From contig OX597834.1 of NCBI GenBank assembly GCA_951406725.2, forward strand, positions 2,170,001 through 2,234,000: a stretch of DNA of 64,000 nucleotides. The letters are read 5' to 3'. Position 1 is the stretch's first letter. Each line of letters opens with the position of its first letter. The position numbers and the translations under genes are program-made. The notes under the pieces are model-generated. The model ran no database searches and was not told the origin of the DNA. It saw nothing but the letters and a program-made list of their open reading frames with translations. Below, piece after piece: positions 3 through 63,471 of the stretch. This DNA comes from Octopus vulgaris (lineage: Eukaryota).

Positions 3-36
3 GACATGTTTCAGCCGTATTTACACCTCATCAGTG
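3..36 (-). ncRNA. Hammerhead ribozyme motif cut by window edge
   Basis: Minus strand: CTGATGA-ggtgtaaatacggct-GAAAC-AT-GTC. Confidence 0.45.
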
Positions 37-184
37 ATAGATGACAAATTGGCAGAGTTGTTAAAGTGTCAGGTAAAATACCTTGTGGTATTTGTTCTGC
101 CTCTGAATTCAAATCTTGCCAAGGTCAGCTTTGCTTTCCATCATTTTAGAGTTGGGAAATAAATTTGGTTATATATTGGGGTAG

Positions 185-186
<2 letters not shown>

Positions 187-246
<60 letters not shown>

Positions 247-300
247 CTCTTTCTCTCTCTCCCCTCTTTCTCTCTCTCCCCCCTCTCTCTCTCTCTTTCT
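187..300. repeat. (TC)n microsatellite, representative of very many (CA)n/(TA)n/(TC)n tracts in the window
   Basis: Seen directly. Confidence 0.95.
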
Positions 301-1262
301 GACTCTATGTTACATATTTTACAATGTGATAGGATCAGGGTCACTAATTGTAAAACTACCCAAGAAATCCCTATTAGGGACCGATTAAACCAGTAGGTGT
401 CAGCTGAAAGGAGGGCTCTGTATTCTCTCTAAACCTGCTAGAAATAGCAGCCCTGAGTTCATATGAGAGAACCAAGGCAGTGTTGGGCAGTTAAGGGTTA
501 AGGGAACCATGTCACTCCTCAAGCTTCTTGCCATCTTTGAAATAGGGGTGGCGTGTTTAAAGTTAGTGTTAATTTTAGAACAGTTTGTTATCCACTTGCA
601 CAATAACCGTGTGGTTTTGGGTTCAAAGCCACTGTGCAGCACCTTAGGCAAGTATCTCTTCTCTAGTTCTTAGTTAATGTGTGTTTGTGTTTCCTCATTT
701 TCATATTGTGTTGGCTGTTAACCAATGCCATAAATTTGCAATCTTGCATGAAAACTTGCCCCGGCCATTGTGATGTTTGTGCTTAAAGGAGTCTGAGGGG
801 AGATATCACCTTGCTTGGAAACGGACGAATGTAGGGAACAAGGAGAGCATCCAGCCTTAGAAACTCTTCCACAAATAAACTCTGTCAGATCCATGCAAGC
901 AGGGAAGAGTGGACATTCAATAAGGATGATGATGGGGATGATTAAGGATTGGTTTTTGAATGTCTGTTTGCAATTAGTTTGGCAATAATTAAATAATATT
1001 CATTAGAATTCTCAAGGCAGCAAGATGGCCAAAATGCTTAGCATGCAGGGCAAAATGCTTCGTGGCATTTCATCTGTCTTTGTGTTCTGAGTTCAAACTC
1101 CTCTGAGGTCAGCTTTGCCTTTCATCCCTTTTAGGGCTTGATAAATTAAGTACCAGTGAAATACTGAGGTCAATGTAATCAACTTGTCCCCTCCCACCAA
1201 ACTATCAGGCCCTCTGCCTTTAATAGAAAGAATTCATTAGGATTCTTACAAAAAAAAAAATA

Positions 1263-2005
1263 GGCATAGGTGTGGCTGCGTGGTAAGAACCATATGGTTC
1301 TGGGTTCAGTCCCACTGCGTGGCACATTGGGCAAGTGTCTTCTGCTATAGCCTTGGGTCGACCAAAACTTTGTGAGTGGATTTGGTAGACGGAAACTGAA
1401 AGAAGCTCGCCGTGTGTATATATATGTGTGTGTGTGTGTGTTTACCCCCCCCCCCCCCCCCATCATCGCTTGACAACTGATGTTGGTGTGTGTACGTCCC
1501 CATAACTTAGTGGTTCTGCAAAAGAGACTGATAGAAGAAATACTAGGCTTGTAAGGAATAAGTCCTGGGGTTGATTTGTTCGACTAAAGGCAGCGCTCCA
1601 GCATGACCGTAGTCAAATACTGAAACAAATAAAAGAATGGCTGTGTGGTTAAGAAGCTTGCTTTGCAGCCAAATGGTTTTGGGTTCAGTCCCAGTCCACA
1701 CCACCTTGGGCAAGTGTCTTCTATAACAGCCCCAGGATGACTAATGTTTTATTAATCAGTTTGGTGGATGGAGACTGGGTGAAGCCCATTGTGCGTGTGT
1801 GTGTCTACCCCATGGCCACTGCTTGACAACTGGTGTCAGTTTGTTTATGTCCCTGTGACTTAGCAGTTCTGTAAAAGAGATTGATAGAATAAATACCGGA
1901 CTTCAAAAAATAACAAAGTATCAGGGTTGATTTGTTTGACTTACAATCCTTCAAGGTGGTGCCCCAGCATGGCCACAGTCTAGGAACTGAAATAAGTGAA
2001 AATAC
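1263..2005 (+). mobile_element. Two tandem copies of tRNA-derived SINE family A (internal GT/TA microsatellite)
   Basis: Head tggctg(c/t)gtggt..aag...gggttcagtccca; tail ccagcatg(g/a)cc..agtc...actgaaa; many other copies in the window. Confidence 0.85.
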
Positions 2006-2991
2006 ATGATTACCCAATATTTAAAAATTTATCCCCCACCCACAACAAAAAAAAGCAAAAACTAGTTACTTGGAATTCTGAGAAATATGGTAAATCATTT
2101 CTTGTAGTTTGAACCTGGTAACTTCAGCCATAAAAATGGCCTTATTGGCCCATAAACATGTATGGGACAATGTTTATAGATGAACAGGTAATGAAGTATT
2201 TAGGTTAGACAAGGGTTTCTAGATTATTCAAGTTATTCAAGCTTCAGTTTGTTACACCTATAATCAGAGGTCACCTGGATTAAGTAACACCAGGTGAAAA
2301 CAGATCAGTTGACTTTCTCATACAAAGAACAACAAAATAGTTTAAATTTTCTTTCATGAATGGTTTTGCAGAAATATCTAAAAAAAAAAAAAAAACGAAA
2401 AAGAAGAGTTTTCTGTAAAATTCCACAACTTTACAATTCCATTGTTGTCTGGGAGATTTGGTCAGATTCTATGGAAGAATTCTGATAAATGAATGAGGCA
2501 TCACTGCGTGTGTGTGGGGGGGGAGTACATGTGTTTGTGAGTATAATTGTGTCTACGTATTTGTGCATATATCCATTTGCATGTGTATGTATGTGTGTGT
2601 GTGTGTATATATATATATTGCATGTATGTATGTATGCATGCATTTGTATATGTACTTGTGTATGTGTTTTATGTGTGTGTGTGTATATATGTATGTACAC
2701 ATACACAGAAAGCGTATGTGATATACACTCTGATATTCCTAAATCCTGCTTGTGTATATATTGGGGTGTGTGTGTCCTTGTTCCTGATATCCTGCAATAG
2801 TCGTAAATGAATGTCACTGTCATACAAGTGGTGTCCTTCCATGAAAACATGTCCAGCCTTGGGGAAATCTTACAGATGAGGGTTCATGACAGGAAAGGCA
2901 TCCAGCCATAGATCTACGTCAATGAATTCTAACCCATGCAAGCATGGAAAACTGGACGTTAAACACACACACACACACACGCACGCACGCA

Positions 2992-3049
<58 letters not shown>

Positions 3050-3101
3050 CTCTCTCTCTTCTTTCTATATTTCAATGTTATTGTCACAGTTTCTGTATAA
3101 A

Positions 3102-3213
3102 TTTCTTTTCTTCTTTTCCAGGTAAGTGGTTCCACTTCACTAAAAGATATTATTATTACTGTATTCTTTGAATACCTGGATCTCCTTATACTCCTAACTG
3201 AGCATAGGTAAGT
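3102..3213 (+). promoter_or_regulatory. Candidate recursive splice site (ratchet point) with 86-nt RS-exon
   Basis: tttcttttcttcttttccAG|GTAAGT (junction 3121/3122); second donor TAG|GTAAGT at 3207/3208. Confidence 0.5.
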
Positions 3214-3786: not shown

Positions 3787-4231
3787 GGCCCGCCTTACTA
3801 CTCCTGTGCTGGTGGCACGTAAAAAGCACCCACTACACTCTTAGAATGGTTGGCGTTAGGAAAGGCATCCAGCTGTAGAAACTCTGCCTGACCAGACTGG
3901 AGCTCTCAGTCAAACCGTCCGACCCATGCCAGCATGGAAAACGGATGTTAATCGATGATGATGATGTGTTTCTTTACATTCTGAGTTCCTTCCTCTGACA
4001 TATGAAGTCGTGATTTATGCTAGAGGCCATGGTATTAGTGGACTGTCCGTAATCAGAGGAGTGTCAGACAAAATGACTGGCTGTATTTAGTTACATCATT
4101 CTGTGACCTTTTAAGTGAAAACACAACAGAGATCAACTTTCACTCCTTCTGTGATTTGTTGATGAAATAAAATACCAGTCATATAATGAGGTTGAGTCTT
4201 TATAACTGAATTCTCCGTTTTTGTTCCAGTA

Positions 4232-4790
4232 TTTAACCCTTGCTGGTTTTAGTCATTGGACTGTGGCCATGCTGGGGCACTACCTTGAAGGGGTTTTAGG
4301 TGAACAAATTGACCCCTCTACGTATTTTGTTTCTTTAAGGTCTGCTACTCATTCTGTCAGTCTTTTCTTGCTGAACCGCTAAGTACAAGGACATAAAGAA
4401 ACTAACACCGGTTCTCAAGGTGGGGGGATAAATAAAAAAGGCACAATGTTGCATACACATATAGATATATGTGTGTATACATGTATATATAGGTATGTAT
4501 GTATATAGATGTATGAGTGTGTGTGTGTGTGTGCCCTTCCTAATGGCACCACTCTGAGTGTGTGGTGCTTTACATGCCACCCGAGCATCAGGCGGATCAG
4601 GCAACGTGTGTATACTTATACATATGTATGTGTGTGTGTTTTTTTTTTTTTTTTTATATATATATGTATACACAAGGCTTTGGTCGACCCGAGGCTACAG
4701 CAGAAGACACTTCCCCAAGGTGCCAAGCAGTAGGACTGAACCTGTAACCATGTAGTTGGGAAGCAAACTCCTTACCACACAGCCATGCTT
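4232..4790 (-). mobile_element. SINE family A copy, with nested fragment of another SINE
   Basis: Reverse complement of head and tail motifs. Confidence 0.75.
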
Positions 4791-4944
4791 TCTTTAAAGG
4801 GTCTGTTGTCAACAGCATCTTTGTTTGTCCCTTTTTATTGCCAAAGATCTGTAAGGAACTAAACCAATCTGGATTGCTGCTACAACATTTAATAATGGTT
4901 AATGAAGGTTGTTAAGAAAATATTGTTGCTTATTCCTTTGCACA

Positions 4945-5410
4945 TCCAAAACCTTTTCGTAACTTTGTCCTGAACGTCCATTCTTGTTTCCAGACTTGTT
5001 TTAGTCAGCCCTCGTTTCATACGTTCTGAGAAACATAAGGCTTTCCTTTTACAAGTTCTAAATCACTCCAGTGGTTGAAAACAATGCCTAGATGCCAGAG
5101 AAATATGTTTTGTGTATCAGATGTGATGGACAAATGGTTAAGCCCACCATCAGGCCCCTGTTGCAACCACAGCATCACAAACTATGGAGACAATTGTTTG
5201 ACATTTAAGACTTTTGCCTGTCTAAAACATTTCCATAGCTTTGCCCTAAAAATCTGTGCTTGTTTTCAGACTTTTAGTCAGCCCTTGTTTCATATGTTCT
5301 GGGTAACATAAAGCTTTCCTTTTGCAAGTCTCAGATTACTGTAATGGTTAAAATGCAATTCAGAATGTGTATCATATATGGTGCAGGGGACCATATCAGA
5401 TGTCCTACAC
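4945..5410 (+). repeat. Old direct duplication, about 275-bp period
   Basis: cagact..ttttagtcagccct.gtttcata.gttctg...aacataa.gctttcctttt.caagt at about 4991 and 5267. Confidence 0.75.
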
Positions 5411-5720
5411 AGGGCAGGCAGAGGTTTTAAACTATATTTTCTACCTTTTATCTATTGTGATAAAGATATGGAAGTGGTTTTAGCAAAATAAAATTTCTTG
5501 GGAAAGAGAAAAAAATGACACTTCTCAGGAAAATATATATCTTCAGATAAAAGAAAAAAAGGAAGCATTGTGCCTAAAAGATAAATGATTTTCTGTTACT
5601 GATAGAATTTAAGAAGAAAAAGAGAGATAAGGGAAAGTTTCAGTATCTGCCACAGGAATTTTATGAAGTGAATATGGAGTAGATGTAAGAACGCTTGTAT
5701 GAATAACAAACTTCCTCTTT

Positions 5721-5758
<38 letters not shown>

Positions 5759-6135
5759 ATTTATTTATGCCCCAGCAGCTTATTTTGCTGAACTCTGTCA
5801 AATTGAACAATTATTGTAGGTATTGAAACTGTGATGATATTTGGTCAATAAGTGATGCGGGGTCCAGCGTGTTTACATCTATCGTGTGCGTGTTTCCTGT
5901 TTTTATGTATGTCTCTTCGTTATCTCCCTGGGCCAGACTTGCATTACACACACACATAAATGTAGTGCATGGGAAATCAAATGAAAGTATAATTCTAGGA
6001 AACTAAGTCATTTGATCTCTTCGAAGCAACCCACATTCATTCACACTGATATGCATCCTCACGCTTTATTGGAAAAATGTGTCATGGGAATGGAATTTAG
6101 ATTGTTGCTGAAGGTCAAGGTTGAGGCTTCACTCA

Positions 6136-6171
<36 letters not shown>

Positions 6172-8420
6172 TGCACACATACCAAATTCACTCACAAGTC
6201 ATTGGTCGACCAAGAGTGGTAGAATTCTAGTTTGACCCCAAATTGATCAATACTCAAGGTGCTGTGCAGTGGGGCTGAACCTGAAACCACCAGCTTAAGG
6301 AGTGTACTTCTTAACCCCAGTCATGACCACATTTGTCTCATTATTGAAATAAATGAAGGAATTTGCTACTTTACCGAATATAACCAAATTGGTGAAACAG
6401 GGAGAGAGAGGGACCTCTTCATGGTAGCCTTAGATGCTAGAAATAGCAGCTAAATTCCTTTCAAATTAATCCTCAGCCAAAGATATGGCCCAAATGCTTA
6501 CTGCAGAGTGAAAACCAATAAAAACACTCAAGGACCTAGGGACCACATACACAACATCATTTTAATGGTTTTGATATATTAAAGGGAATGGGTTTTCACA
6601 ATAACTCACTAGGTAGAGTGCAGGACTGTTGAAAGTTATCAAAATGTGTAATCGTTAGATCAGTTCTCCAAACGTGTCTCATGAAATCCTGCTTTGTTGT
6701 AAAGGGATCAGCTGGGAGAATGGTTACTGCACTGGACAAAGTGCTTAGCGACATTTTGTCCATCTTTACATTCTGAGTTCAAATTTTGCCTGGGTCCACT
6801 TTGCTTTTCATCCATTCAGGGTTGATAAAATGAGTACCAGTTGAGCACTGGGGTCGATGTAATTGATTTACCCCTCCCCCTAAATTGCTGGCCTTGTGCC
6901 AAACGAATATATAAAAGAGAGTGTAGGAATGTTTCAAGTTGTAGGCAACAGTTTTTACACTGAGGCAGTTGAGATTCTGTGTAAGGGTCCGTACTTTTCA
7001 AGCAGAAATGCACAAGTTATGAGAGTGTCTCTAGCCTAAGGTGTTCTTTTCTACTCTAAGCACAAGGCCCGAAATTTTTGTGGGAGGGGCCAGTCAATTA
7101 GATCGACCCCAGTACACAACTGGTACATAATTTATCAACCCCGAAAGGATGAAAGGCAAGGTCGGCTCAGCAGAATTTGAACTCAGAACATAAAGACAGA
7201 CAAGCATTTCACCTGGCATTGCCACCTTTCTAGCTGAAGATATTGATTAAACCAGGTAATAAGGCCAGGTGCAGCTACGGCTTGAAATATTAGCCAGGTG
7301 AAGGATTCATTGGGAAGAAACCTGCCCACATATCTGAACAAAAGCAATCGTAAAAAAAAGCATTTGTCTCCTGGCATTTGTTTTTTTTGTTGGTGGCACA
7401 TCTCTGGCCCATATGTGGTGCACCTGTGTGACACACTTGCGCACTGCAGGTGTGTTTTATGCTTGAAAATGACTGTCGTACAGTTGTTGCTTAATCTGCT
7501 AGAAATAGCAGTCAAATTTACTTGAAGTCACAGTCAGAAAGATACACTGGAGACTGTAGTTGTTGATAAAAAGAAAGAAGAAAAAAGACAGGATGGTCAT
7601 AGTTGGAATGCCTTTGATCTGAGGCTTGTGGGATGGGATTATAGGGCTGATTGTAGGGTAAACAATGACTATCACCTTGATGATGATTTCCACCACCACC
7701 ATTGCTGCTACTACTACTACTACTACTACTACAAAACTATTTCCCCAGTCATTGGTGAATCACATTTTTATCACCATATTACATTACATTTTCCATCTCC
7801 ACACACCAAGTTCTGCATGACACCACACATACCCCAACACACACTGCCAGTGGTGGTTGACAGGTTTTGAAACCCTCCTTTCCCCAACCGCTCCATGCAC
7901 TTCTAATTCTTATCTTTTATTTCAATTTTTCTCTCTTTTTCTCAACTGCTTGGCCACCAAAGGATTGAATTTAATAATCGAGATCCTCCCAGTTGAAATC
8001 CACGCCATACATACATACATCCCTTTAACTTTTACTTGTTTCAGTCATTGGACTGTGGCCATGCTGGGGTACTGCTCTTTAGGGTTTAGTCAAACAAATC
8101 AACCCCCAGTATTTATTTTTTTAAGTCTGATCCTTACTCTATCAGTCGCTTTTGCTGAATCACTAAGTTATGGCAAAATAAACAAACCAACACAATAAAC
8201 AAGCCAACTTCTTAACCACACAGCCATCTCATAGGAATTGAACACCTATTTTGTATATCTCTAACTACCTCTTCAGAGATTCAACTTTCAGATAATTTTT
8301 AATTTAATTAATTAATTTTCTGAAGGTCTGGAATTGAAACAGCTGTAAGGGATGTTTGTCAAATTTTAATTAATAAATAATAATTTATTAATTAACTCCC
8401 TATTTTCTCATCTTCCCCAA

Positions 8421-8515
8421 GACACCTGAAGAAGTCTGGAGGGTATATCAGCTGAAACATTGTGTTAACAACAAACAAAATGAGGACAAATATCTGTCAA
8501 ATGTAAATAATGTAT
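8421..8515 (+). mobile_element. Penelope-like terminal repeat remnant with degenerate hammerhead
   Basis: GACAC-CTGAAGA-agtctggagggtatatcagct-GAAAC-att-GTGTT; downstream aacaacaaacaaaatgaggacaaatatc recurs at 59395-59422. Confidence 0.5.
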
Positions 8516-9153
8516 ATATATATATATATATATACCGGAGTAAACACATAAATGTGAAACAAGGTGGAAAAAAGAGTACTCAAATACCAGTGGTAGAGTA
8601 ATATGCTTTAAATAAAGTATATATATTTATATATATAAATGACCGACTCTCCCATCGAATGTATAAGTGTTTAGCTTTTGCCAAGCAACTTATGCAAATG
8701 ATTTGTGATCAAATGTTCGTGCCACACATTATTAGCTCACTCTCCCTCCATCAAGTCAATGTTACCTGAACAGGTAAGTGGTGTACCACGTGCCAGGTGT
8801 CAAAGTGATTGCAGAGCAACGTGAGGTGAAGTGTTTTGCTCAAGAACACAACGCACCGCCCGGTCTAGGAATTGAAACCACAATCCCTAGGTCATGAGTG
8901 CAACACCAACACCCTGACCACTACATATCATTCTTAAACAAGAATACTATTCACAGCAACTTCAAAGCTTCACCTTTCTAAGAAGTCTAATGACGGCATA
9001 ACTGGTCACAACTTCAAAGTCAGTCAACAACAACATCCTTGTTTGAGAATAATAAATCTGTACTCTACAAAAGTATAAAGTAACCAATTAGAGTAATGTA
9101 AAATTGTTTTTATTATAATTGAACACAACAACAAATATTTGTGTGTGTGTGTA

Positions 9154-16523: not shown

Positions 16524-16673
16524 GTTGTGTCTGGGGAGAGTCATTTTCTTTTTGTGCCTTATAATTTAACACACTCACCGGTAAAATTTCCACTTATTTC
16601 TTATTTATATTTTCTTAGAATTTTCGTTGCGTCTTGCAACCTTTTCAATAGTCTTGACAAACACAGATGCAAA

Positions 16674-16712
<39 letters not shown>

Positions 16713-16846
16713 GTCAAGACTATTGAAAAGGTTGCAAGATGTAACAAAAATTTTAGGAAAATAAAAATAAGAAATGAGTGGAAATTTTACCGGTGAGTGT
16801 GTTAAATTATAAGGCACAAAAAGAAAATGACTCTCCCCAGACACAA
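16524..16846. repeat. Long inverted repeat (about 135-bp arms, (CA)n spacer)
   Basis: gttgtgtctggggagagtc...caatagtcttgaca / tgtcaagactattg...gactctccccagacacaac; third copy about 41917-42047. Confidence 0.92.
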
Positions 16847-18414: not shown

Positions 18415-18511
18415 TTCACTACAGCTGTTTCAGACCTTTTTTTTTTTTATTGATGAATAAAACTTATTACATCATGGGGGGGGGGGGGGAGAACCGTTTT
18501 CTTCAGGTGAA
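18415..18511 (-). ncRNA. Type I hammerhead ribozyme motif
   Basis: Minus strand: TTCAC-CTGAAGA-...-GAAAC-AGCT-GTA-GTGAA; perfect stem I, stem II eroded by homopolymers. Confidence 0.6.
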
Positions 18512-19354: not shown

Positions 19355-19400
<46 letters not shown>

Positions 19401-19520
19401 TGATGAGTTGTCCATAGAGCTAAGTGCTTTATGGATGTGAAACCATTAGTTACTCTATGACTGGACATATACTTAACTACACACACAACTGTAAAACATA
19501 AATGTCACCACAACAACATG

Positions 19521-19561
19521 AACCTGAAGATTGCATAGTTTAATGCATGAAAGTACTAGTT
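19521..19561 (+). ncRNA. Minimal type I hammerhead ribozyme motif
   Basis: AAC-CTGAAGA-t-TGCAT agttta ATGCA-t-GAAA-GTAC-TA-GTT; palindromic stem III AGTACT, CUA triplet. Confidence 0.6.
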
Positions 19562-20067: not shown

Positions 20068-20158
20068 TATCTCCTACACATCTTTTGATGGATGCATCCA
20101 AAATACATCTGACAGGATGAATAATGATCAGGAATGCATCAATCTCTTCAGGGAGGAT
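20068..20158 (-). pseudogene. Inactivated hammerhead motif
   Basis: Minus strand: CTCC-CTGAAGA-GATTGATGCAT...ATGCATCCATC-AAAAG-atgt-GTA-GGAG; GAAAC core mutated. Confidence 0.45.
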
Positions 20159-22507: not shown

Positions 22508-22718
22508 AATAAAGAGTATGGAGACTTGTACATCCACAAAATAATATACAGCAGATTATAATGACCCACACGTGTTTCCATGTTTCTGACAATTTTTACC
22601 GTCCAGCAAAGAGTACACAGAATCACTCATCGGAAGTATTCACACAGTGACTAACAACTAAATGTAGACACAGATGTTAGGTTCTGATCCTCGTTGTGAC
22701 CTCCAAATTCACTTATAT

Positions 22719-23055: not shown

Positions 23056-23569
23056 ACAACTACAATTTCCATTTGATATTTATTTTGATATATATAGAAA
23101 TGCATGTATATATATATATTGGTATAGTTTCCAGTTCCGTTAAGTTAAGATCAGCAAACAATGTACTGCATCCAATGAAAGATAAACATCATTCAATGTA
23201 GACAGAACAACGATATGAGTTGTTAGAAGTTTCTTCATTTAGAAACACAGGTCCAGGCAGGTTTTCATAACGTACCTTATATCTCTGAGCAATCTTCAGA
23301 AAGATGGATGGATAGACAGAAGGATGGATGGGTGTGTGTGTGGGTGCACGCATGCATATATATATTTACACACATGCACACATATATGAATGCATATACA
23401 AACACATACACATTTACACAAGTATGATAGACAGACAGATAGATACTTAGGTGGATTAATAGGTTTGTGTGTGTGTGTGTGCATGCGCATATATATATAT
23501 ATTTACACACACACACACAAATATGATAGGCAACTAGAGAAGTACATTGGTAGATAGAGGTATATATAC

Positions 23570-24165: not shown

Positions 24166-25006
24166 GGCAGTGAGCTGGCAGAAACGTTAGCGCGCCATGC
24201 GAAATGCTTAGCGGTATTTCGTCTGTCGCAACGTTCTGAGTTCAAATTCCGCCGAGGTCGACTTTGCCTTTCATCCTTTCGGGGTCGATAAATTAAGTAC
24301 CAGTTACGCACTGGGGTCGATGTAATCGACTTAATACCTATGTCTGTCCTTGTTTGTCCCCTCTGTGTTTAGCCCCTTGTGGGCAATAAAGAAATAGGTA
24401 TTTTGTCTGTCTTTACGTTCGGAGTTCAAATTCCACCGAGGTCGGCTTTGCCTTTCATCCTTTTGAGGTTGATTAAATAAGTACCAGTTACGCACTGGGG
24501 TCGAAGTAATCGACTTACTCCCTTTGTCCGTCCTTGTTTGTCTGCTCTATGTTTAGTCCCCTTCCCTCCCCGTGGGTAATAAAAAAAATTTTAATTATTA
24601 TTATCATTATTAGCACACCAGGCAAGATGGTTAGCGACATTTCGTCCATCTTTATGTTCTGGGTTCAAATTCCGCCAATGTTGACTTTGCTGTTCATCCT
24701 TTGGGGGCTAGTAAAATAAGTACCAGTTGAGTACTGGGGTCAAAGTAATTGACTAACACCCACCCCTAAAATTCCAGGCCTTGTGCTTATAATATAAAAA
24801 ATTATTATTATTAAGGCAGAATTGTTAGCATGCCAGGCAAAATGCTTAACGGCATTTTATCCGTCTGAATTCAGATTCCGCTGAGGTTGACTTCGCCTTT
24901 CATCCCTTCAGGGTCAATAAATTAAGTACCAGTGAAACACTGGGGTTGATGTAATCAACTAGTCCCCTCCGCACAAATTTCAAACCTTGTACCTTTAGTA
25001 GCAAAG
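24166..25006 (+). mobile_element. Cluster of four family B SINEs (MetaSINE-like central domain)
   Basis: Repeated gagttcaaattccgccgaggtcgactttgcctttcatcctttcggggtcgataaattaagtaccag. Other copies near 45-180, 1015-1230, 6705-6910, 7045-7230(-), 15495-15700, 25390-25610, 36868-37075, 47845-48035(-). The Meta-domain name is from recall. Confidence 0.85.
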
Positions 25007-26112: not shown

Positions 26113-26162
26113 ATTCATCACTGAGGAGGCCAAATTAAGTTGAAACACTGTGTCTAGTGAAT
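26113..26162 (+). ncRNA. Hammerhead ribozyme motif, partly decayed
   Basis: attcatca-CTGAGGA-ggccaaattaagtt-GAAAC-ACTGT-GTC-tagtgaat; imperfect stems I and II. Confidence 0.5.
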
Positions 26163-28602: not shown

Positions 28603-29399
28603 TTCTCTCCCTCTTACCATCTCCCCCCTCTGAATCGGCTGAAATCTTAATTAGAAAGTTCTATTTTAGTCTCTTTAATTAACCACTTCGTTAGCGTGAT
28701 TAGTTAATTGTTAAAAGGCTGGAAGTCATTCAGGTTTTATTTTTCTTATTGTTTTTGTTATTCATTCTCATACAAACATATCACATACGGACACACACAC
28801 ATTAACATACCTTGACAAGAGATATACACAATTGGCATATATACATATATACACAACATACATTGACATACATGCATACACCCACATACATAGATATACA
28901 CATTTGACATACATACACACATACATATGTTAGCACATATACACATACACATGTCATACATTTGATATACACAGATGGTGGAAGTCGACTTGTGACCGAG
29001 TAAGACCACTTTTGAAATCCATTCCACTCCCAAGAAATACTTTGTTTGGTTTCCCCATCATTGACAGAATCTCACGTGGTCCCTAAGGCCTGCACCAGAC
29101 CTATGGGTCATTCCACATTGACCACAAGTCGGTCTCCATGCAGCAGCAGCAGCAACAGCCTGACCATCTGTATGTTGTGACCTACACTACTGAATGAATC
29201 CACTGGCCAACCCCCACACACTGCTGCACAAGAGAGCATGCTGGATATCACATTGGTTGAAAGGGGACACTTCTGAAACCAAGTTTGCAACTGAATAGGC
29301 CCTAGCTTTCCTCTGAGAAGCAGGCATGACCACCCAGGTCACACAAAAGAGACTCTTTCGTGCCCTCATCACAGGAATTGGGTTGACATCTTCCATTTA

Positions 29400-32601: not shown

Positions 32602-32659
32602 ATTATGGACGTGTTTCTGGATTAGAATTATACAAATTCATTTCCTTCATCAGCATAAT
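32602..32659 (-). ncRNA. Type I hammerhead ribozyme motif (Penelope/retrozyme-type)
   Basis: Minus strand: ATTATG-CTGATGA-aggaaatgaatttgtataattctaatcca-GAAAC-AC-GTC-CATAAT; 6-bp stem I, intact core, GUC triplet. Confidence 0.7.
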
Positions 32660-35380: not shown

Positions 35381-35414
<34 letters not shown>

Positions 35415-36029
35415 GGAAGCTTTATGAAAATAAACAAAAGACGAAGGCAGGTGGAGTACAAACAAACAATTGTATTAGTATGGCGCTCAGGAATATAAAT
35501 AAAACAAGTCATTTACGTTTCGAGCCTATGCTCTTCAACAGAAAGATACACAGAAAAGAAACACGGAGAGAAAAAAAAATGCGTGCAGAAGCTAGCGATT
35601 CAACATGGCGATAAATATATATATATATATATATATACACATACTTACACATACTAAGGAATAACATGATTAATGCTACCCTCTATCATTTAGTGATATG
35701 TGTGTATGCATATGTATGTGTGTGGAGGTGTCAGTATATGCATGTATATGTGTGTGTTAGTGTGTGCTACAAATGTCAAACTCAGAGCAATATTTAACAG
35801 CTAAATCACATGGCATTTTCTGTAACTATTTTCTGGTTAAAAATTTATGACTTATCTTTGTGTATACAGCATGTAACCAATACTGAATCAGCACAGCAAA
35901 ATATTCGGTCAAACTGATATTAAAGAAAAAAATCACTTTTGAAGATGACAACACAAAGAGCACGTTTTTAGAAAATTGGTCCCTATGTTTAATTAAATAG
36001 ACTAAAAAATGGCCACTCAACTAAAACTT

Positions 36030-36688
36030 CCCTCACCCACAGCATAGACATAGAAATGATTGCCCAGCAGGACCAGATGACTCCTTCTCATGTCACAGTG
36101 GGAGTCTCCAAAGAATCTTTGACACCGTAAAACCATTGATCAGTTCACCTTCCAGTATTGCCCAATGCTGCAGTCGTGTATGGAGCCCAAAATCAGGAGA
36201 AACAGGAGACCACATGATGTTGGGGTGGGTGTCATGTGATTACATGGTTTCCCTACCATCTCTTACCAAGTGTGAACTATCATAAAAGACCCGTTTGTGA
36301 TGTCTTCATGCATCACATGGCTGGTTGAGGACTCAGCCATTCACTGGAACTGTCTTTAAAAATGTCCCAACAACTGAGAATGTCAACCTTTCTTGGTATG
36401 GTGGACACAGTCCTGCTTGAGGTCTCCATATTTTTCCTAGCCTTGAATGCAAATGACATGACCACATTCAAGAAAATGGTAATCCCTTTGCATGGCACCA
36501 AGGCTCATGAACCCGATGCTGTCTTCTCAGTTGCTATCAGACTGGAACCGGCCATGTTCACTCTGCTGGTAAATGTGAAAGAGAAACGAGAAAGCTAGAA
36601 TTTGGGGCATGTCACATATCCTTGTTTGGTTAGCTTCCATTTATGGCTCCCACTAAAAATTGTTCATAAATTCCTGGTGCATCCTGTA
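36030..36688 (-). mobile_element. Highly decayed Tc1/mariner remnant
   Basis: Terminus ...gcatcctg|ta resembles the TIR above; minus-strand remnant reads MWSPVSPDFG...HWAILE (cf. WPPxSPDLNPLDYxxWxxLE). Confidence 0.45.
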
Positions 36689-41830: not shown

Positions 41831-42048
41831 AAGTGTATATATGTATACATACATATATACATACATATATATATATATCTCCATATCCATCCATCTATCT
41901 ATCTATCGTTTTTGGAGTCAAGACTATTGGAAAGGCTGCAAAATGCAACGAAAATTTTAGAAAAATAAAAATAAGAAATAAGTGGAAATTTTAGCGGTGT
42001 GTTAAATTATAAGGCACAAAAAGAAAATGACTCTCCCCAGACACAACA

Positions 42049-43199: not shown

Positions 43200-44280
43200 T
43201 TAACCCTGAAAGGTCATGGTGAGATCAGATGCAGATATCTGCATTGTCTGCTCAATAACTCAACTTCTGACCATTGTGCTCATCCTCAGTCTTTGTCCAG
43301 ATTGGAGCATCAACTTTTCTGCTTCCATTGGCCAGGCAGTCCATCTCTTGTCAGCATCCCTCTCTGAAAGCCAGGTTTGGCATGCTGTGGTCGCTGATGC
43401 ACAAACGTTCACAGAGGCTATCCTGGCGGATGAGCAGGTGTGTCCACAATGCATCTCTTTGATGGAGTTGCAGTCCTAGGTCAGGTAATGGCCAAGATTA
43501 AGGTCCCTGGCATCTAGAATATCCTCAGAGGCTCACCACTCTCAACCAGTCAAGTAATGCTGTCGGTGGAAGTATATAGAGGACAAGTGATGGGCTAGAG
43601 TGATGCTGTTCTTGAAGCTGGGGAGGATGAATTATTTGGTCTGTTTCAGAGGTTGAGGACTATTATGGAGAGCTTCCAGAAATTCCTGGCCTTACTATGT
43701 TGAGGAGGGCCACTGGTGGTTCAAGATGTTCTCTACAGGTATGCTAATGCCACTTATCAGGACTGCTTGAGATGCTCACAGAGTAACAAAACTATTGCAT
43801 GCACCCATGCAGTGTCTTATCATCGCTGACCTTTGAGGAGATGTCGGAACAGATATTGTCACGTGCAGCACAAATCCCAACCATTGGCTGGGTTCATCTT
43901 TACAGTTGACCCCACCCCCACCATCTGCCATTAGCAAGTTTGGGCAAGCCGTGTCCCCCTATCTAATAGTTATGGTGGGAGAAGTTGTGTGGTGGATGAG
44001 GTTGAAAGGATTGGAGACAGGGACACCTTCCTCTTTGCTGACACCCTCATTGACCTTTAAAAGTTAGAAAGGGAGGGTGGAGAGGAATGTGCTCTTTCTC
44101 TCACTGAATTTGTGAAAAGGTGGGTAACTGTGGTAAAAATGGCTGGGATCAATGGACCTTTTCTGGTTATGGTTGGAGACTGGAGAAAAAATAGTTGGGC
44201 AAGAGTTTGTGTCCTTCATTGTTAAGGTACACCTGGATCTGTGGGTGTTCCATTATTGGCCCCTGTTGGAGGCTCTCCTG
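43200..44280 (+). mobile_element. Decayed LINE remnant, possibly L1/Tx1 clade
   Basis: About 1 kb GC-richer, microsatellite-free, broken reading frames; RVER...EFVKRWV near the end. Confidence 0.4.
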
Positions 44281-47207: not shown

Positions 47208-48548
47208 TATATATACATATATATATACATCTGCCTTTCCGCCAATATGGCTTATATTACCAAAGTGCAGCGGAACCCTCAATGCTCTCCACCAACAACA
47301 ATTTAATCGACAGGACCTGTTTGTAGCAGGGGTTTGATTCCTTCAGCAACTCCCATTTTTGATATCTCCATCCCTCTGTCCTTACAAATACACAACTGAT
47401 GTCAGACTTGCCCAAAAGCTAACACCATGCTGTTTCTGTCTGTGTGTCCTGCACTACACTACAACACACAAGGTACCGCAGAACCCCAGTATAGATAGTG
47501 GTACAGTGTATTCACTACCATTGTATGACCGTACCTCAAAACGCTATGTACCTTTATAGTTACAATAGCACCACAGCCGTGTACCTCAGTACCTCAGTCT
47601 CGATCCTTGGTCTGCATTATTGTATCAACTTCAATATGGAATGTCTTATGCTTCGATGTCATCTTATCATGTGGCTGTGTCCATCACAAGTAGATGTGTG
47701 TGTGTGTGTGTGTGTGTGTGTGGATATAATACACACACACATACATTTTGCTGACATCATAAGAATTTATAAACTTTGGGGCAATGTGAAATAATTTCTT
47801 TATTGGAACGGTGAACCTTGTAGCAAATGAAGCTATGAATAATCTATAAGGCACAAAGCCTAAAATATTTTTAGGGGTCAGGGCTAGCCAATTAAATAAA
47901 CCCCATTACTCAACTGGTATTTTATCAACTCTGAAAGGATGAAAGGTAATGTTGACCTCAGCAGAATTTGAACTCAGAACATGATGATGAATGGGATGCC
48001 ACAAAGTACTTTGTCCAGCATGCTTATGATACTGCCAGCATGGAAACGTTGGGTTAAAAAAACCCTCTTGGAAAAAAAAAAGCCAAAGGCTGTCTGTTGG
48101 ACTTGAACCCACATCTTCTGTAGACATGACAGATGTTCTACCATTGGACCAAAGCAATCTTTCCAGTTTCTCGATCCATTTTAGAAAGTCTATTTTTACC
48201 AGCAAGAATTGTCTGTTGTTTGATGTCTTATAAACTTTTGAGGGAATGAGAAATAATTATCTGAAGTGTTTGGCGTTAGGGATGGCCTGCGGTCAGTGGA
48301 GGCAGGCCTAAACAGTGGCCAGACTAACAAGACAGGGTCCCAGACTCACAAGGGGTTGTAACTCTGTATAAGAATTGACTCGGGCCATAGCAAGCCATGG
48401 AAAGGGGCTGTAAAATGATACTGATGATGGTCATGATCCTCCGTGCGTGTGCGAGCGTGTGGGTTGTGTGTCTTGTATAAAAACCTTGAGTTTCCATAAT
48501 ACCAAAATGACCCTCATGTCATTTCTAGTTTAAATTTCTATAATGTAC

Positions 48549-48784: not shown

Positions 48785-49728
48785 ATGTGTATACACGCAC
48801 ACACACATATACACTGTATGTATATTTACATAATATGTATAACAGTATGTGTATACACTCATAATTGATGTTTGTGCTTTATTGTTGTTATCCAGCAGAA
48901 AGTATATATTTAATGATCAGTTAGATTTTGTGTGTGTGTGTATATATATATATCTACACATACATATATATATATTCTTTTATAAGCTTGAGCCCTAAGG
49001 TTATGGCCTATCATCCTGTAATGTCCCTTTTTCTTCATGCTGGTATGTGTGTTGGATGGTTTGACAAGAACAGACAAGCCAAGGGTTCTGCCAGATTATA
49101 AATCTGTTTTGGCAGACTTTCTGCAGCTGGATGCTGCCCTTCCTAACACCGATCCCTCAACTACATGGCACCAGCACCAGTGAGGTCACCAAGTCCCTGC
49201 AAGATAAGATCCCTCAACTGCTGAGCAGGGCATAGACTGGAGAAGTAAAAAAAAAAACTATAATAGGGAGGGAGAAGAGCCGGTCCATTGGTGGAGTGGT
49301 GAATACATTGGTCTGGCACTTTGCTGGTCATGATGGCGAGAGTTCCAGCTGATTCAATCAATGGGACAGCCTGCTCGTGAAATTAACATGCAAGTGGCTG
49401 AGTGCTCCACAGACATGTGTAACCCTTAATGTAGTTCACAGGGAGATTCAGTGTGACACGGAATGTGACAACACTGGCCCCTTGTGAATTACAGGTACAA
49501 CTCGTTTTTGCCAGCTGAGTGGACTGGAGCAATGTGAAATGAAGTGTCTTGCTCAAGGACACAACCTGTGCTACGAATCAAACTCATGACCTTACGACTG
49601 TGTCCTGAATACCCCTGACCACCCCTGACCACCAAACCACACACATTGTTTGTATGTATAATGTGTATGCAAGCGTGCGTTTTAAACATCACTTTCACCT
49701 GATGTTGTTGTTGTCGTTGTCTTTTCAG

Positions 49729-49963
49729 CACAAGGTGTGTTTCAGTGACCAGATCAGCACCTTACATGACTATCCATCGGAGGAAGTGATGCTGGAACAT
49801 TATCTCCTGGAACATCCGGAAGAGAGGAATGAGCTGCTATTACTGGAAGGCCATGGTCTTGATGGAATGAACGAATCCACCGATGACGGCTCGGAATCTG
49901 ATGACAGCAGCCCTGTCAGTCCTGATGACGGAATGAGATCAAACTTGGCTTTATCTTCAACAG
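49729..49963 (+). CDS. TPRN: Internal coding exon of a taperin/phostensin-family PP1-binding protein (HKVCFSDQISTLHDYPSEEVMLEHY...SNLALSST G)
   Basis: Acceptor ttgtcgttgtcttttcag ends 49728; donor AG|gtgagt at 49964. 235 nt open, phase 0 in and phase 1 out, non-repetitive codons. KVCF fits the RVxF PP1 motif and is followed by YPSE and an acidic tract, as recalled for taperin/phostensin (KISF...YPSES). Family call is from remembered motifs; orthology is unverified. Confidence 0.85.
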
Positions 49964-51103
49964 GTGAGTAACCCACAGCTTTTCATCTCACGCCTCTTTC
50001 CTTAATTAGCGATCATTAATTGCTATTAGTGTTGCTCTTCTTTTTGTTGTTGTTATTGTTTAGTCTTGAGTCATCGTGATCAAGCAGGCTTATTTGCTCA
50101 GACACTCCATCCACGACTCTCTCATCATTTAGCCAGTATTTCTAAGATTACATCATTTCATGTTATCCTTCCTGTTTTAACACAGTTGTGGGCATGATAG
50201 CTTTGAGGGGAATTTGGTTGCTATTTCTAACAGCTTCAACAGTCAATTAATGGCTCAATTATCTTTGCTGTTATTGGTATTGCTAATGATGATGATGTTA
50301 AAGTTTTATCATTTAGTCCTAGAGATAAAAATACTTTCCTCTCCTTAATAGAAATGATGGTGGCGGTGGTGGTGGTGGTAGTAATATTCCTTTTCTAAAA
50401 GTCTAATTCTCCCCAGTCTTTATATGCATATAAGGAACAGGTGTGGCTGTGTGGTAAGAAGCTTGCTTCCCAACCACATGGTTCCAGGCTCAGTCCCACT
50501 GCAGTCCCACCTTGAGCAAATTTTTTCTACTATAGCCTCAGGCCAACCAAAAATCTGTATTATCTTGCTCAGCCCTCCACCCTGGACTATCCTCTTAGAT
50601 TTGCACCCTAGAGAGGTCACTCAAAGTCAGAATTCCTTAACCTCTCAAAACCGGACTCAGTTTCACAACTAATTGTCAGTGTTTTTCTAAACCTGTTGTG
50701 ACAAGCCTCTCTTGTGGCTATAGGGTTACATAATGGAACTAAATTGGTTATGTCAACCGCAAACCACTGGATGCTTAATTTGGCTGGTGATAGGCAGACA
50801 GGTAGGCAGATGGATGGACAGAGCAGTGGGGACACAGCATGTCCAGAATGCAACAGTGTAGCACATAATTAGCCATTGCACGTCAGAGAAAAACTTACGA
50901 CTAGATGTAGACGTGGCATTTCTCAAGTTTATTTTGGCTGACCACCCACAATGTTATGAAGTACCTCAGGGTCTATGAACTCTAGAGGTCATGGAATAAC
51001 AACAACAACATCAATAACAGACATACAGAAACAGACTGTTCAGTGGGGAGAGAAAGAGAGAGAGATTAGGACGTGTCCCTTTTAGGACCTGTTTAGCTTA
51101 GAA

Positions 51104-52820: not shown

Positions 52821-52920
52821 TACGTGTGTTTCATGACAACATATTCCTCAATATTACTGAAATAGAATGTCTCTAAATACAATACCATATTAAAAAGATT
52901 ATATTGCCAATCTTCAGGTC
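52821..52920 (-). ncRNA. Hammerhead ribozyme motif lacking stem I
   Basis: Minus strand: CTGAAGA-t-TGGCAATATA...TATGTTGTCA-t-GAAAC-ACAC-GTA; 10-bp stem II including GU pairs. Confidence 0.5.
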
Positions 52921-53375
52921 TAGCATATATGAACTTATTTTGCTATTTACATCCTATATAAAGACATGACAAACTAAAATTATATAACTAGAAGTTGTTG
53001 GAATAATTTTTACTTTTGAAAATAATGAACAGAAATATGAAATAAAAGTAGGAAAAAAAGTAGGAAAAAAAAATGTTAACTTATCTGTATGGTAATTTTC
53101 TCTCCATGAATTAAACATGGCTACCAGCAATCGTATAATCGTATAATTGAGAGCTACTTTTTGGAGGAGATAATTCTTATTAACATTTAAAAATTTATTA
53201 TTTATCAAAGTTAATATATAAATAAAATAAATTAACCAAGAAAAAAAAAGAAAAAGACTCTTCCCATCAAACACTCACTTCTAGCTTCTATTTATTTGTT
53301 ATTATAACAGAAAATACCTGGCAACTTGGTTTGGTTAATTTTAATGGACGGGCAACAACAAGTTAATACATGTGC

Positions 53376-59819: not shown

Positions 59820-60349
59820 ATTCAGTTTCATTTTCTTACAGATACACTATTATCATTATTATTATTAATTATTATTATTTTGAAAATTTTTATAGTTATT
59901 AATATTATTATTATTATTATATTTTATAAGCAAATTCTATCATGGATTAATCATTGTTGTATTGTTGTTGTTGTTGTTGTTGTTTCTCTTTTATTTTATT
60001 TTTGAAGGAAGGAAACCCATTCCGATTGTACATATTTCGTCAACTGTCGACCCTCCTCCCCCTAACTCGCTTCACTCACCTCCCACCTCCTCTTCCTTTC
60101 TGTTTTCTCTTTCTGTGGCGTGGGGGTGGGTGGGGCTGTAGTAGTCTGGCTGTCTCCACGGAACAAACTTCCCTGTTCCTCACACACACACACACACACA
60201 CACTCCAAGTCCCTATTTTTCGGTCTACATTTTCATTTCAGTATCTACCCGACCTCCAATTTCATTATATCGTGGTTCTTCCTTTAAAACTCACATCTTT
60301 CGCTTTTTTTATAAACAGCGACTTAGAAAGCCTCTGCAATGTAGTCGAG

Positions 60350-60355
60350 AATAAA
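60350..60355 (+). terminator. Candidate polyadenylation signal
   Basis: AATAAA about 530 nt after the stop codon; the motif is common in AT-rich DNA. Confidence 0.25.
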
Positions 60356-61165
60356 TTTGAATGACAAACTTTACTATAAAACTTTCAATAATCCTCATAT
60401 TTTGGCTGATAAAAGCCTTAGTCATAGGTTTAGAGAGCAGGAAAGATGTCCTGCTTTATCACAAGTCTTGGCTTGTGTATGTTTATATATATATATATAT
60501 ATATATACATTTTAGATCATATTTTGAAGCATTGAGAAATTTTAAAATGCACAGATTATGGGGTAAAACAAACAAACCCTTACATAGAAAAGAGTTGACA
60601 ATATTCACTTTTTTCCTATCCGAAAGGTATTTACTTCGTTTTGGGAGTTGTAATTTGTAACTACATTTCCATTTGAACATCATAAAATGACACACACACA
60701 CATCTGTATGTGATGGAGTTCACTTTGTTAACATGCAGTTTTGAGTTCTATCTCAGTGAATGGCACCTTAGAGCAAGTGTCTTCTACTGTAGCACGAGAC
60801 TGACTAATGCTTCGTGAGCGAAATTGGTCAACAGTAACGGAGTGGAAGCCCGTTTTATGTATGGATGTACATGTGTATGCGTATATAATGTGTGTAAATG
60901 TTTACATTCTGCACTTTGCAATGTAAAGTTTGAACTAAAAAGATTTTTTAAGATTGGTGATGTTTGTTGATAATCTTCATTGACAAGTTGTCCATTAGCT
61001 CTATTCTTTCAACAAGGAATCACACAAATAATCCTTTACTTGAAAATAGGAAAAAAAAAAAAAACAAGAGTTAGTAACAAGATGGAAATCTGGTTGTAAA
61101 GCAATGCCTTGATTTTTATGTCCTCATTCACACCATTCTAGTATGGGAAAACACGCATAAAGCAA

Positions 61166-61203
<38 letters not shown>

Positions 61204-63375
61204 CAGCTTGGTCAGAAGCTGCTGGCTAGAATGTTTATGTATGTAGAATTATATAAACACTCGCACATCTACACATATGTATATGTTTACATAATGATGT
61301 GTAGTGAAATATGTGTATATATACACATTTTATTTATGCATGGAAGTACACTGACATATTCACACATTGTTATATATGCAAACTACACACACACACACAC
61401 ACACTCCCAAGACATACCCCCCACCCACATTGTAAACTCAGTCTGTGTGAGGACTCTCCCCCACCACCTTCCAAACCCCCCACTCCCATTCTCCACCCAC
61501 CCACCTTATTATCAGTGAATTTTTTTCCTTCTTGCTCCCCCCCCCCTTTGAATGTTTCTGGCAGTCAAAAGACATTCGCAAATTTTGCTGGCTGCCAAAA
61601 AAAAAAAATAAAACAAAATAAACCCCTTCATGGCGGTGCTCCAGCATGACCACAGCCGCATGGCTGAAACGAGTAAAAGAGTAAGATCTTAGACGTCTAC
61701 ATGACCTTCACAAATGTTCCTGACAGTCTAAAGACATTCAAATTCACAAAATTATTCCAAGAAAAAATTTCCAATTGTTTAAAACGTTGAAGTAAAATTT
61801 AGGGGCCAGGGTTTTGTTTTTTTGGTTTGTTTTCTAATTGTTTTTTAATTATTTTTTTGAAATATAAATGTATATGTGTATATATATTATAATTACTACA
61901 ATGAAGTATATATATATATAAATATATATATATGTATGTGTGCACGTGTGTGTTTGCATGTGTGTGTGTGTGTGTGTGTGTAATCATCTCACTAACTCAA
62001 ACTACAGTTTATGTTGTAAAAAGTCTGTAGTTAATCCTGCTGGTCAGGTGATGGCAGAGGGGGGCGGGGCGGAGGTGTGTGTGTGTGTCACCTTCCCCCA
62101 CCCCCTCTAACACCCCCTCCCTTTGTCTAGAGCTGGAGGGGGAGAGAGAAAAGCTTGGAATAGAGGTGAATGGGAACATTAGGGTGAGAGAGCAGCTGTG
62201 TGTGTGTGTGTAGGGGTGTGAAAAAGGGCCCACCCCTGTGTGTGTGTGTGTGTGTGTGGTGGCAGGAGGTGAGAGAGACTCAGGTGTCTGCAAAGGGGAA
62301 TGAGAGGACGTGTGTGTGTGTGTGTGTACATGAAATAGACTATACAAGTGTGTGTGAAGGGAGCATGAGAAAACCTGTGTGTGTGTGTGTGTGTATGCAT
62401 ACATACATGTAAGAGGAACCCTATAGAAGTGTGTGTGTGTGTGTGTGTGGTCACCCAGCATAGTCTGACGCACCTTTTATTAATCTCTGCATATATTCCA
62501 ATCCATGCAAGCATGGAGAAATAAAAATGGACATAAAAATGATTAATTATGATGATGATGATGATGATTCCAAATGCCATATGATGTCTCGCTGTGTGTG
62601 TGTGTAGGTTCAATTTCAGCTGTCTTCTTCCACCATAACCACCTCCTCGGAGACATGATCCTCCTCCTCCTCCCCCCCCACCTCCACACACACAGCCTCA
62701 CTTTATTGGTTCATTGAAGTCATATGATTTGGAACAAAAACAAAAATAAATAAATACAAACAACAGATTATTTAACTGCCTCATTAATAAATACTAATGA
62801 CCTACAACAGAATCCCTCTCTTAACGAGTTGTGTTTTTTCTTCATTCTTTTCTCTATCTTTACAGAAACCCCATTTTTTTCTGGTTCCATCTATAACCCC
62901 TCAGTCTCTCATCTCCTGTTCTGGAGGGAGAGAATATCCCCTCGCACCCACACACCCACTTCCTCAGATCCTGTTCTCATAATATAACGAACTTATTGCC
63001 CACCCCTGCTTGGGTGCACCACAACTCACCTGAAAAGGTTGCCAAAAGTGCGTGAAGAATACAAAGAAGAATGCACAGGAAGTGAAGAATGAAGGAATTG
63101 CTTAAAAACACAAGCTTGGGGGGGGGGAGAAATCAAGTGGTCGTGAGATATGCTAAAAATAACAGCTTGAATCACAATTTATTTTCGGTGGGTGGTGGGG
63201 GTGCATAGTTGTATGATTTCCTGTTGTGTTGGTTATATGCCATGCGTAACGAAGAATTCTGCCATGGATTGAAAGACAAAGTTGACCTCGAGGGCACAGA
63301 CAGCTTGAAGGAACACAACAAAATAGTATTGTATTAAAAATATATGAAACATGAGAGTTTAAAAATTTTTTAATG

Positions 63376-63471
63376 CATCTTACAATTGTTTCATAAAAGT
63401 ATTATCATTATAATGGAATCAATTCATTGTTGATACACATTGAAAGACAATACTTCCGATCGTCAGAGATG
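63376..63471 (-). ncRNA. Type I hammerhead ribozyme motif
   Basis: Minus strand: CATCT-CTGACGA-[AAGTATTGTC...GATAATACTT stem II]-GAAAC-AATT-GTA-AGATG; 5-bp stem I, palindromic stem III. Confidence 0.7.

What the first reader, a model, noticed from the sequence alone, without database searches (positions are those of the whole stretch)
3..63471. About ten dispersed hammerhead-ribozyme motifs from several unrelated repeat families
Seen: CTGA(T/A/C/G)GA ... GAAA(C) followed by a short, often palindromic stem III and an NUH triplet. Positions: 3-36(-), 8421-8466(+), 18415-18511(-), 19521-19561(+), 20068-20158(-, mutated), 26113-26162(+), 32602-32659(-), 52821-52920(-), 63376-63471(-), with relics near 8320, 22575-22632(-) and 35514-35540(-). 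Stems I and II differ in sequence between copies but keep pairing, which argues for structure rather than chance. Established: minimal type I hammerheads with palindromic stem III mark Penelope-like element terminal repeats and retrozymes, and cleave as dimers. Inference: this genome carries a large and diverse ribozyme-bearing retroelement population, here roughly one motif per 6-7 kb.
Basis: partly seen in the sequence, partly recalled or inferred. Interest (0 to 1): 0.78.

Follow-up and report, generated by a model that had tools for sequence, protein, structure and literature searches.

The report
Penelope hammerhead relics, one odd-core lineage
The motifs are real but mostly decayed hammerhead-ribozyme sequences from about fourteen repeat families that likely all derive from the ends of Penelope-like jumping genes, a known arrangement; one lineage of over 15,000 copies keeps an unusual core letter and would be a new natural variant if it still cuts RNA.

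Summary
The observation largely holds. Only one window copy (19524) passes a full descriptor. The excess over shuffles is clear (window 10 vs 0.8; 380 kb of fixed-position genome samples 16 vs 0-1). Two families sit directly behind RT + GIY-YIG frames of Neptune-type Penelope-like elements and a third likely does; most loci end in (TA)n. These are truncated 3' stubs, not tandem retrozymes, as published for other animals. The surprise is the 35514 'relic': its lineage has U instead of the conserved A6 (15,730 exact copies against 180), lies behind its own RT-endonuclease frame (19 of 20 loci), and varies only at the two positions free in hammerheads (N7, H17), also in runs of three other organisms. 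Published position-6 changes cut poorly, so this is a selected weak or assisted variant, or a fold kept for another job. Cleavage is untested. The scan noted other Penelope hammerhead variants on other DNA, not this one.

The parts
3..36 (-). Short-stem hammerhead relic, first of two cores about 55 nt apart (second lies just before the window); predicted cut after position 3
8268..8350 (+).
   Evidence: 8 of 25 copies pass the descriptor
8421..8466 (+). Minimal hammerhead of a young family (96-97% identity); stem III not palindromic in the close copies (likely CpG decay); N7 alternates 12 U / 8 A
16615..16651 (-). U3-A8 core minimal hammerhead, stem I reduced to 2 bp; inverted partner of 16720-16756; missed by reader
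16720..16756 (+). Same U3-A8 family, G12 lost in this copy; missed by reader
18415..18511 (-). Old long-stem-II family; 5-bp stem I, 8-nt palindrome, GUA triplet; stem II base imperfect (0 of 20 copies pass)
19398..19455 (+). Hammerhead with 12-bp stem II, 5' arm of stem I cut off by a (TA)n run; missed by reader
19521..19561 (+). Only window copy passing the full descriptor (U-U at the base of stem II); 3' terminal repeat of an RT + GIY-YIG family; predicted cut after 19558
   Evidence: 11 of 20 copies pass
20068..20158 (-). Long-stem-II hammerhead, G12 lost in this copy; family lies behind an RT-GIY frame in L120/L405
22563..22578 (-).
26115..26160 (+). Old family, 6-bp stem I in the majority, short stem II, 7-nt near-palindrome, GUC triplet
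32602..32659 (-). Hammerhead with 6-bp stem I and bulged stem II; palindrome decayed in this copy
35412..35606 (-). About 200-bp 3' stub of the U6 Penelope-like lineage, between (TA)n runs; nearest copies 97-98% identical
35509..35546 (-). Minimal hammerhead with lineage-fixed U at core position 6 (35538); N7 = 35537, H17 = 35514; predicted cut between 35514 and 35513; this copy has one mismatch in stem I
41924..41960 (+). Third copy of the U3-A8 family, core decayed; missed by reader
52821..52923 (-). Long-stem-II hammerhead; this copy belongs to the 13 of 25 that share a deletion of the stem I 3' arm
63376..63471 (-). Long-stem-II hammerhead (14-bp stem in the majority), 5-bp stem I, 8-nt palindrome; stem II base broken in this copy
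   Evidence: 5 of 30 copies pass

Best explanation
The sites are hammerhead motifs inside short dispersed repeats that are likely the truncated 3' ends of Penelope-like retrotransposons, and almost all copies in this window are decayed and predicted to be inactive. In a full element the motif stands at both ends of the RT + GIY-YIG frame (shown: L422, two motifs 2,953 nt apart). Inferred from published work: on one transcript the two motifs swap their palindromic stem III strands, form a dimer and cut after NUH, probably helped by the element's protein; the protein nicks AT-rich (TA)n DNA and copies the RNA from its 3' end; early stops leave 100-600 bp stubs, often with an inverted second piece, which then decay. 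The 35514 lineage is one such autonomous element whose motif carries U at position 6; I read it as a hammerhead kept by selection in the master copies that likely cuts slowly or with help.
For: Majority anatomy in the families; excess over shuffles and over a reversed-pattern control, 10,399 vs 935. RT + GIY-YIG frames are abundant (148 matches of 150 scored, 16 with a 781-aa open frame; Pfam) and carry a C-x-C-x2-C linker. The 19521 family follows such a frame on the same strand in L258, L266, L268, L274, L131, L135; the 35514 family in 19 of 20 frame-picked loci; a U3-A8 motif follows the frame in 14 of 30 GIY-picked loci. 166 of 240 family loci have (TA)4 within 120 nt of the 3' end against 17% background, and 58 of 240 have an inverted partner. 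Same anatomy and setting in PMC4209133 and PMC8557442.
Against: No RT or endonuclease piece in the window plus 10 kb each side. For 10 of 14 families no locus carried a frame piece (0 of 13-30 loci each), so their origin is inferred. G10.1-C11.1 is missing in the majority of three families (19521, 52821, 32602). No cleavage or transcript-end data. For U6: a mutational scan found low activity for CUGA-turn changes other than the C3/G8 swap (PMC9901934); A6C is slow in Mg2+ (PMC3088659, PMC7151607); the stem II loop is as invariant as the core; the constraint test is modest (p 0.02 or 0.07 by threshold).
Confidence: 0.87

Rival explanations
1. The U6 motif no longer cuts; it is kept as an RNA structure or sequence bound by the element's own protein, or as part of the promoter in the terminal repeat, and cleavage is dispensable for transposition.
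For: Catalytic mutants did not affect insertion by an anole element in vitro and no reads ended at its cut site (PMC11167929); Naiad elements spread without canonical hammerheads (PMC8557442); 13 of 25 copies of the 52821 family share loss of the stem I 3' arm; the U6 stem II loop is invariant; position-6 changes are deleterious in print.
Against: The only shared variants between C3 and H17 are N7 (all four letters: 20/13/9/6 of 48) and H17 (A or U), exactly the positions free in a cutting hammerhead; G8 and G12 are kept in 98 of the first 100 listed matches each.
Confidence: 0.4
2. U6 is a neutral founder change that rode along with a prolific lineage; the apparent constraint reflects few changes among master copies.
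For: Fisher p rises to 0.07-0.12 at the stricter threshold; subfamilies are not independent; T-runs inflate flank variation.
Against: The 3' flanks of the same copies fall to about 75% identity while the 28-nt motif stays the same; one position took all four letters while its neighbours took none; the pattern repeats in runs of three other organisms.
Confidence: 0.15
3. The window sites are non-LTR retrozymes that make circular RNAs, or host-recruited active ribozymes.
For: A 359-bp tandem array of intact motifs exists elsewhere in the genome (L148); mussel retrozymes of 350-390 bp are known (PMC7229834); 3-36 has a neighbour about 55 nt away.
Against: No hammerhead-bearing tandem array in the window; 5 of 240 family loci have a direct partner; 15 of 16 window sites fail the canonical descriptor; window copies carry private breaking changes.
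Confidence: 0.05
4. Chance matches in AT-rich, microsatellite-rich DNA.
For: Single copies mostly fold no better than shuffles; 4 of 10 relaxed hits have no family support; the 22575 pairing was spurious.
Against: Shuffle and reversed-pattern controls; families were found by sequence alone and their majorities restore the pairing.
Confidence: 0.01

Closest known systems
Minimal hammerheads of metazoan Penelope-like elements (Cervera and De la Pena 2014, PMC4209133; review PMC6765202 for the dimer work of Lunse et al.)
   Same: Type I topology, extra base after A9, short palindromic stem III, 3-6 bp stem I, many divergent families per genome, mostly single truncated copies, U3-A8 subtype, molluscs (Lottia, Crassostrea) listed in the supplement.
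   Different: No octopus entry found; stem II regions of 58-78 nt in five families against 7-8 bp helices described; counts far above the 4,000-9,000 reported for coelacanth and Xenopus; a lineage-fixed U6 core is not in the consensus given.
Neptune-clade (or Nematis-clade) EN+ Penelope-like elements (PMC8557442)
   Same: RT, Zn-finger-like linker, C-terminal GIY-YIG, hammerhead in the terminal repeat, partial tandems, inverted truncated copies, microsatellite targets.
   Different: Clade not fixed by a tree with reference elements; the linker alone does not separate Neptune from Nematis.
Natural A6C hammerhead of phage Bcep176 (PMC3088659, PMC7151607)
   Same: Natural pyrimidine at core position 6.
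   Different: One phage example with C, slow in Mg2+ and favouring Mn2+; here U, in more than 15,000 copies of an animal retroelement lineage, activity unknown.
Non-LTR retrozymes (PMC7229834; bioRxiv 10.64898/2026.07.22.740005)
   Same: Type I hammerheads, link to Penelope-like elements; a 359-bp array in this genome (L148) fits.
   Different: The window sites are single stubs, not tandem 150-450 bp units.

Membership tests
Penelope-type minimal hammerhead | Core CUGANGA (or U3-A8) and GAAA | tested here: met
   Family majorities; met for 13 of 14 families
Penelope-type minimal hammerhead | A6 in the core, for the 35514 lineage | tested here: not met
   U6 in 15,730 exact matches vs 180 A6; 45 of 48 flank-picked copies
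Penelope-type minimal hammerhead | Short palindromic stem III and NUH triplet | tested here: met
   Exact or near palindromes in majorities; 8421 close copies not palindromic
Penelope-type minimal hammerhead | Stem I of 3-6 bp and stem II of 4 bp or more | tested here: met
   exceptions: 52821 deletion subfamily (2 bp), 3-36 family (opening mismatch), 18415 (imperfect stem II base), 26113 (3-bp stem II in the majority)
Penelope-type minimal hammerhead | G10.1-C11.1 pair | tested here: inconclusive
   Present in the 35514, 20068 and 16648 families; U-U in 19521 and 52821, A-A in 32602
Penelope-type minimal hammerhead | Location in the terminal repeat next to an RT + GIY-YIG frame | tested here: inconclusive
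   Met for 19521 and 35514, likely for 20068 (3 of 20 loci), one locus of 15 for 22575; no linked frame seen for 10 families
Penelope-type minimal hammerhead | Self-cleavage as a dimer | not testable with these tools
   Needs an assay; only contigs were offered for RNA
Neptune-clade Penelope-like element | RT, Zn-finger-like linker, C-terminal GIY-YIG | tested here: met
   (GIY-YIG below Pfam cut-off for the U6 frame, E about 0.01; motif seen directly)
Neptune-clade Penelope-like element | Placement in an RT tree with reference clades | not tested
   No reference proteins were fetched
Neptune-clade Penelope-like element | Microsatellite targets and inverted truncated partners | tested here: met
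   166 of 240 and 58 of 240 loci
Non-LTR retrozyme | Tandem 150-450 bp units each with a hammerhead | tested here: not met
   None in the window; 5 of 240 loci with a direct partner
Non-LTR retrozyme | Circular RNA | not testable with these tools
   No raw RNA reads offered
Rfam hammerhead families | Gathering score | tested here: not met

The most novel reading that the evidence does not exclude
An autonomous Penelope-like lineage has run for several subfamily generations, and across at least four related species, on a hammerhead with U in place of the conserved A6, and this variant still cleaves (slowly, with another metal, or aided by the element's protein): by copy number the largest natural departure from the hammerhead core that I could find, with a 4,264-copy A6 look-alike family in the same genome as a built-in control.
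Probability: 0.4. Interest if true: 0.66.

Novelty: new variant of a known kind. Interest (0 to 1): 0.45.

Why it matters
The U6 lineage makes an open question testable: whether Penelope hammerheads are kept for cutting or for something else. If U6 cuts, the core rule has a mass natural exception; if it does not, a hammerhead fold is being conserved without catalysis, which would point to a binding role in transposition.

Tried and rejected
Rfam scans: no hammerhead. First monomer descriptor too strict for this class. Single-copy folding energies uninformative. tblastn for RT/endonuclease in the window plus 10 kb: nothing but microsatellite artefacts. RNA evidence: no RNA holder on record and only contigs offered; laying them showed no molecule ends and no circular joints, which contigs cannot show. 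Relaxed hits 7234, 10766, 15904, 24160 and cores at 23299, 14872, 10312, 10184: no family support among the loci held, dropped. The 5' core at about 22633 rejected. The second CUGA-like word after 26162 is ordinary family sequence, not a second ribozyme. Host exons: 12 candidates, no convincing Pfam match. Flanks of the A6 look-alike family were not obtained, so its relation to the U6 lineage is open. Lunse et al. 2017 could not be read, so its roughly 150,000 variants (figure recalled) may include octopus families or U6; file 1 of the Cervera 2014 supplement was not searched. Paper searches that found no report of octopus Penelope hammerheads or of A6U.
Full report
Setting. The window is G000:C21:2170001-2234000 in a 2.8-Gb assembly of 227 contigs, 38% GC and full of microsatellites. 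I take it for an octopus-like genome from size, contig number and a SINE that I recall; no call confirms this.

Checking the observation. As single copies they are poor: none passes a strict monomer descriptor, Rfam reports no hammerhead, and 12 of 13 segments fold no better than shuffles. A descriptor modelled on the published minimal motif (extra base or mismatch at the base of stem II, palindromic stem III, stem I of 3 bp or more) passes one window site, 19524, against a shuffle mean of 0.025. On independent DNA, 38 stretches of 10 kb taken at round coordinates, the strict descriptor gives 16 against 0-1 and the relaxed one 37 against 2-6. Seven of the 16 lie in one 359-bp tandem array; the 9 dispersed hits scale to about 66,000 per genome (95% limits 30,000-126,000). 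An exact short pattern gives 10,399 matches against 935 for its reversed control.

Families. Each site was searched in the genome (at most 40 candidates scored and 13-30 loci aligned per family, so close copies are favoured). The majority sequences restore the anatomy that the window copies have lost: for 63376, a 5-bp stem I, 14-bp stem II, 8-nt palindrome and GUA; similar for 20068, 52821 and 8271, with stem II regions of 58-78 nt. Copies passing the strict descriptor: 5 of 30 (63376), 2 of 25 (52821), 8 of 25 (8271), 5 of 20 (20068), 11 of 20 (19521), 0 of 20 (18415, 32602, 8421), and 21 of 25 for 35514 once position 6 is freed. In three families N7 is the most variable core column (12/8 in 20068, 12/8 in 8421, 20/4 in 8271). 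Total: 16 sites in 14 families.

What carries them. [quoted passage not shown] A U3-A8 hammerhead follows the frame in 14 of those 30 loci. The 19521 family follows a second such frame on the same strand in six loci, once with an inverted copy upstream. The 20068 family has frame pieces in 3 of 20 loci, one in the expected geometry. Ten families showed no linked frame in 13-30 loci each, and there is none in the window or 10 kb either side. Over 11 families, 166 of 240 loci have (TA)4 near the 3' end (background 17%), 58 have an inverted partner and 5 a direct partner. This is the footprint of truncated Penelope-like insertions, not of tandem retrozymes.

The 35514 lineage. Genome-wide the exact 27-mer occurs 15,730 times with U6 and 180 times with A6; the A6 copies inspected (25) mostly have the flanks of U6 subfamilies and look like back-mutations. 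A looser pattern gives 19,748 matches; 96 of the first 100 listed have U6. With G8 and G12 left free, 98 of the first 100 keep each. Copies picked by the 3' flank alone (54 found, 6 dropped for not spanning the motif) have U6 in 45 of 48, N7 as U20/A13/C9/G6, H17 as A42/U6, and every other position from C3 to U16.1 at 44 of 48 or better; flanks have shared variants in 18 of 105 columns (Fisher p 0.02 at a 12% threshold, 0.07 at 20%; 0.001 and 0.12 for the 30 copies not picked through the frame). Contigs of public runs from four coded organisms show shared variation within C3-H17 only at N7 and H17, apart from the window's private change, and none at position 6. A search with the frame and tail, ending just before the core, returned 20 loci; 19 have the motif about 0.9-1.1 kb behind the GIY-YIG motif on the same strand, all with U6, and L422 has it at both ends, 2,953 nt apart. 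The frames seen are broken or partial; RT is recognised by Pfam (E 4e-7), GIY-YIG only below cut-off. A look-alike family with A6 and a 3-nt loop has 4,264 exact matches; its flanks were not obtained.

Mechanism. Shown: anatomy, family structure, position relative to the frame for two families, target preference, decay of the window copies. Inferred from print: dimer formation through the palindrome and low activity in vitro (PMC4209133, parts 1-3 of 4 read plus a supplement search; PMC6765202, passages), protein-assisted cleavage, nicking of AT-rich DNA and insertion that does not need cleavage in vitro (PMC11167929, passages). The window's single stubs have no partner on the same strand, except the decayed 3-36 pair, and should be inert. 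For U6 the evidence points both ways. Variation falls on the two positions free in a cutting hammerhead, which favours selection on the catalytic fold. Against this, changes in the CUGA turn gave low activity in a mutational scan (PMC9901934, passages), natural A6C is slow in Mg2+ (PMC3088659 and PMC7151607, passages), the stem II loop is just as invariant, and 13 of 25 copies of the 52821 family share loss of the stem I 3' arm. I put working U6 cleavage at about 0.4, a non-catalytic role at 0.4 and neutral carriage at 0.15.

Comparison and novelty. Abundant, diverse, mostly solitary minimal hammerheads from Penelope-like elements are published for many animals, with about 4,000 in coelacanth and 9,000 in Xenopus, molluscs included; the axolotl has up to 120,000 retrozymes (PMC7229834, passages); the giant squid paper lists 235 Rfam hits (PMC6962438, passages); a 2026 preprint derives retrozymes from these elements and does not mention cephalopods (part 1 of 5 and passages); PMC6155905 (passages) added nothing. 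Searches found no paper on octopus Penelope hammerheads or on A6U, but Lunse et al. 2017 could not be read. The scan's own notes hold other core variants on other DNA and nothing on this genome or sequence. Verdict: the census is a new member of a known kind; the U6 lineage is a new variant awaiting an assay. Interest 0.45.

Noticed in passing
L148:3080-4550 and adjacent (G000:C1 near 20.003 Mb): Tandem array of about 359-bp units, five on one strand and two inverted, each with an intact hammerhead (6-bp stem I, 4-bp stem II); no RT piece within 10 kb; looks like a non-LTR retrozyme.
   Followed up: partly
L158 minus strand, positions 971 and 1333: Two U3-A8 hammerheads 362 nt apart with a stem II like that of the L148 array; a related single motif in L244/L270.
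   Followed up: no
L256, L257 (G000:C16): Young Neptune-type element with a 781-aa open frame, preceded by a second open frame of 333-359 aa with no convincing Pfam match; its terminal motif has a U3-A8 core.
   Followed up: partly
window 8268-8277: The core of the 8271 motif differs from its family by two bases that read as a tiny inversion between short inverted repeats, leaving a perfect core word on the opposite strand.
   Followed up: partly
window 52821-52923 family: 13 of 25 copies share an 11-nt deletion that removes most of the stem I 3' arm, so a subfamily spread with a 2-bp stem I.
   Followed up: partly
window 19521, 52821, 19400, 32602 families: A U-U or A-A mismatch in place of G10.1-C11.1 recurs in unrelated families.
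   Followed up: no
window 29190-29396(-), 36096-36504(-), 43263-43475(-), 49609-49968(+): Non-repetitive open frames that look like host exons; no convincing Pfam match. Whether the motifs lie in introns was not established.
   Followed up: partly
window 48088-48158(-): tRNA-like match at the Rfam threshold (29.8 bits), probably a SINE head or pseudogene.
   Followed up: no
window 24213-25005: Four tandem or close copies of a 184-bp SINE-like repeat, with other copies across the window.
   Followed up: no
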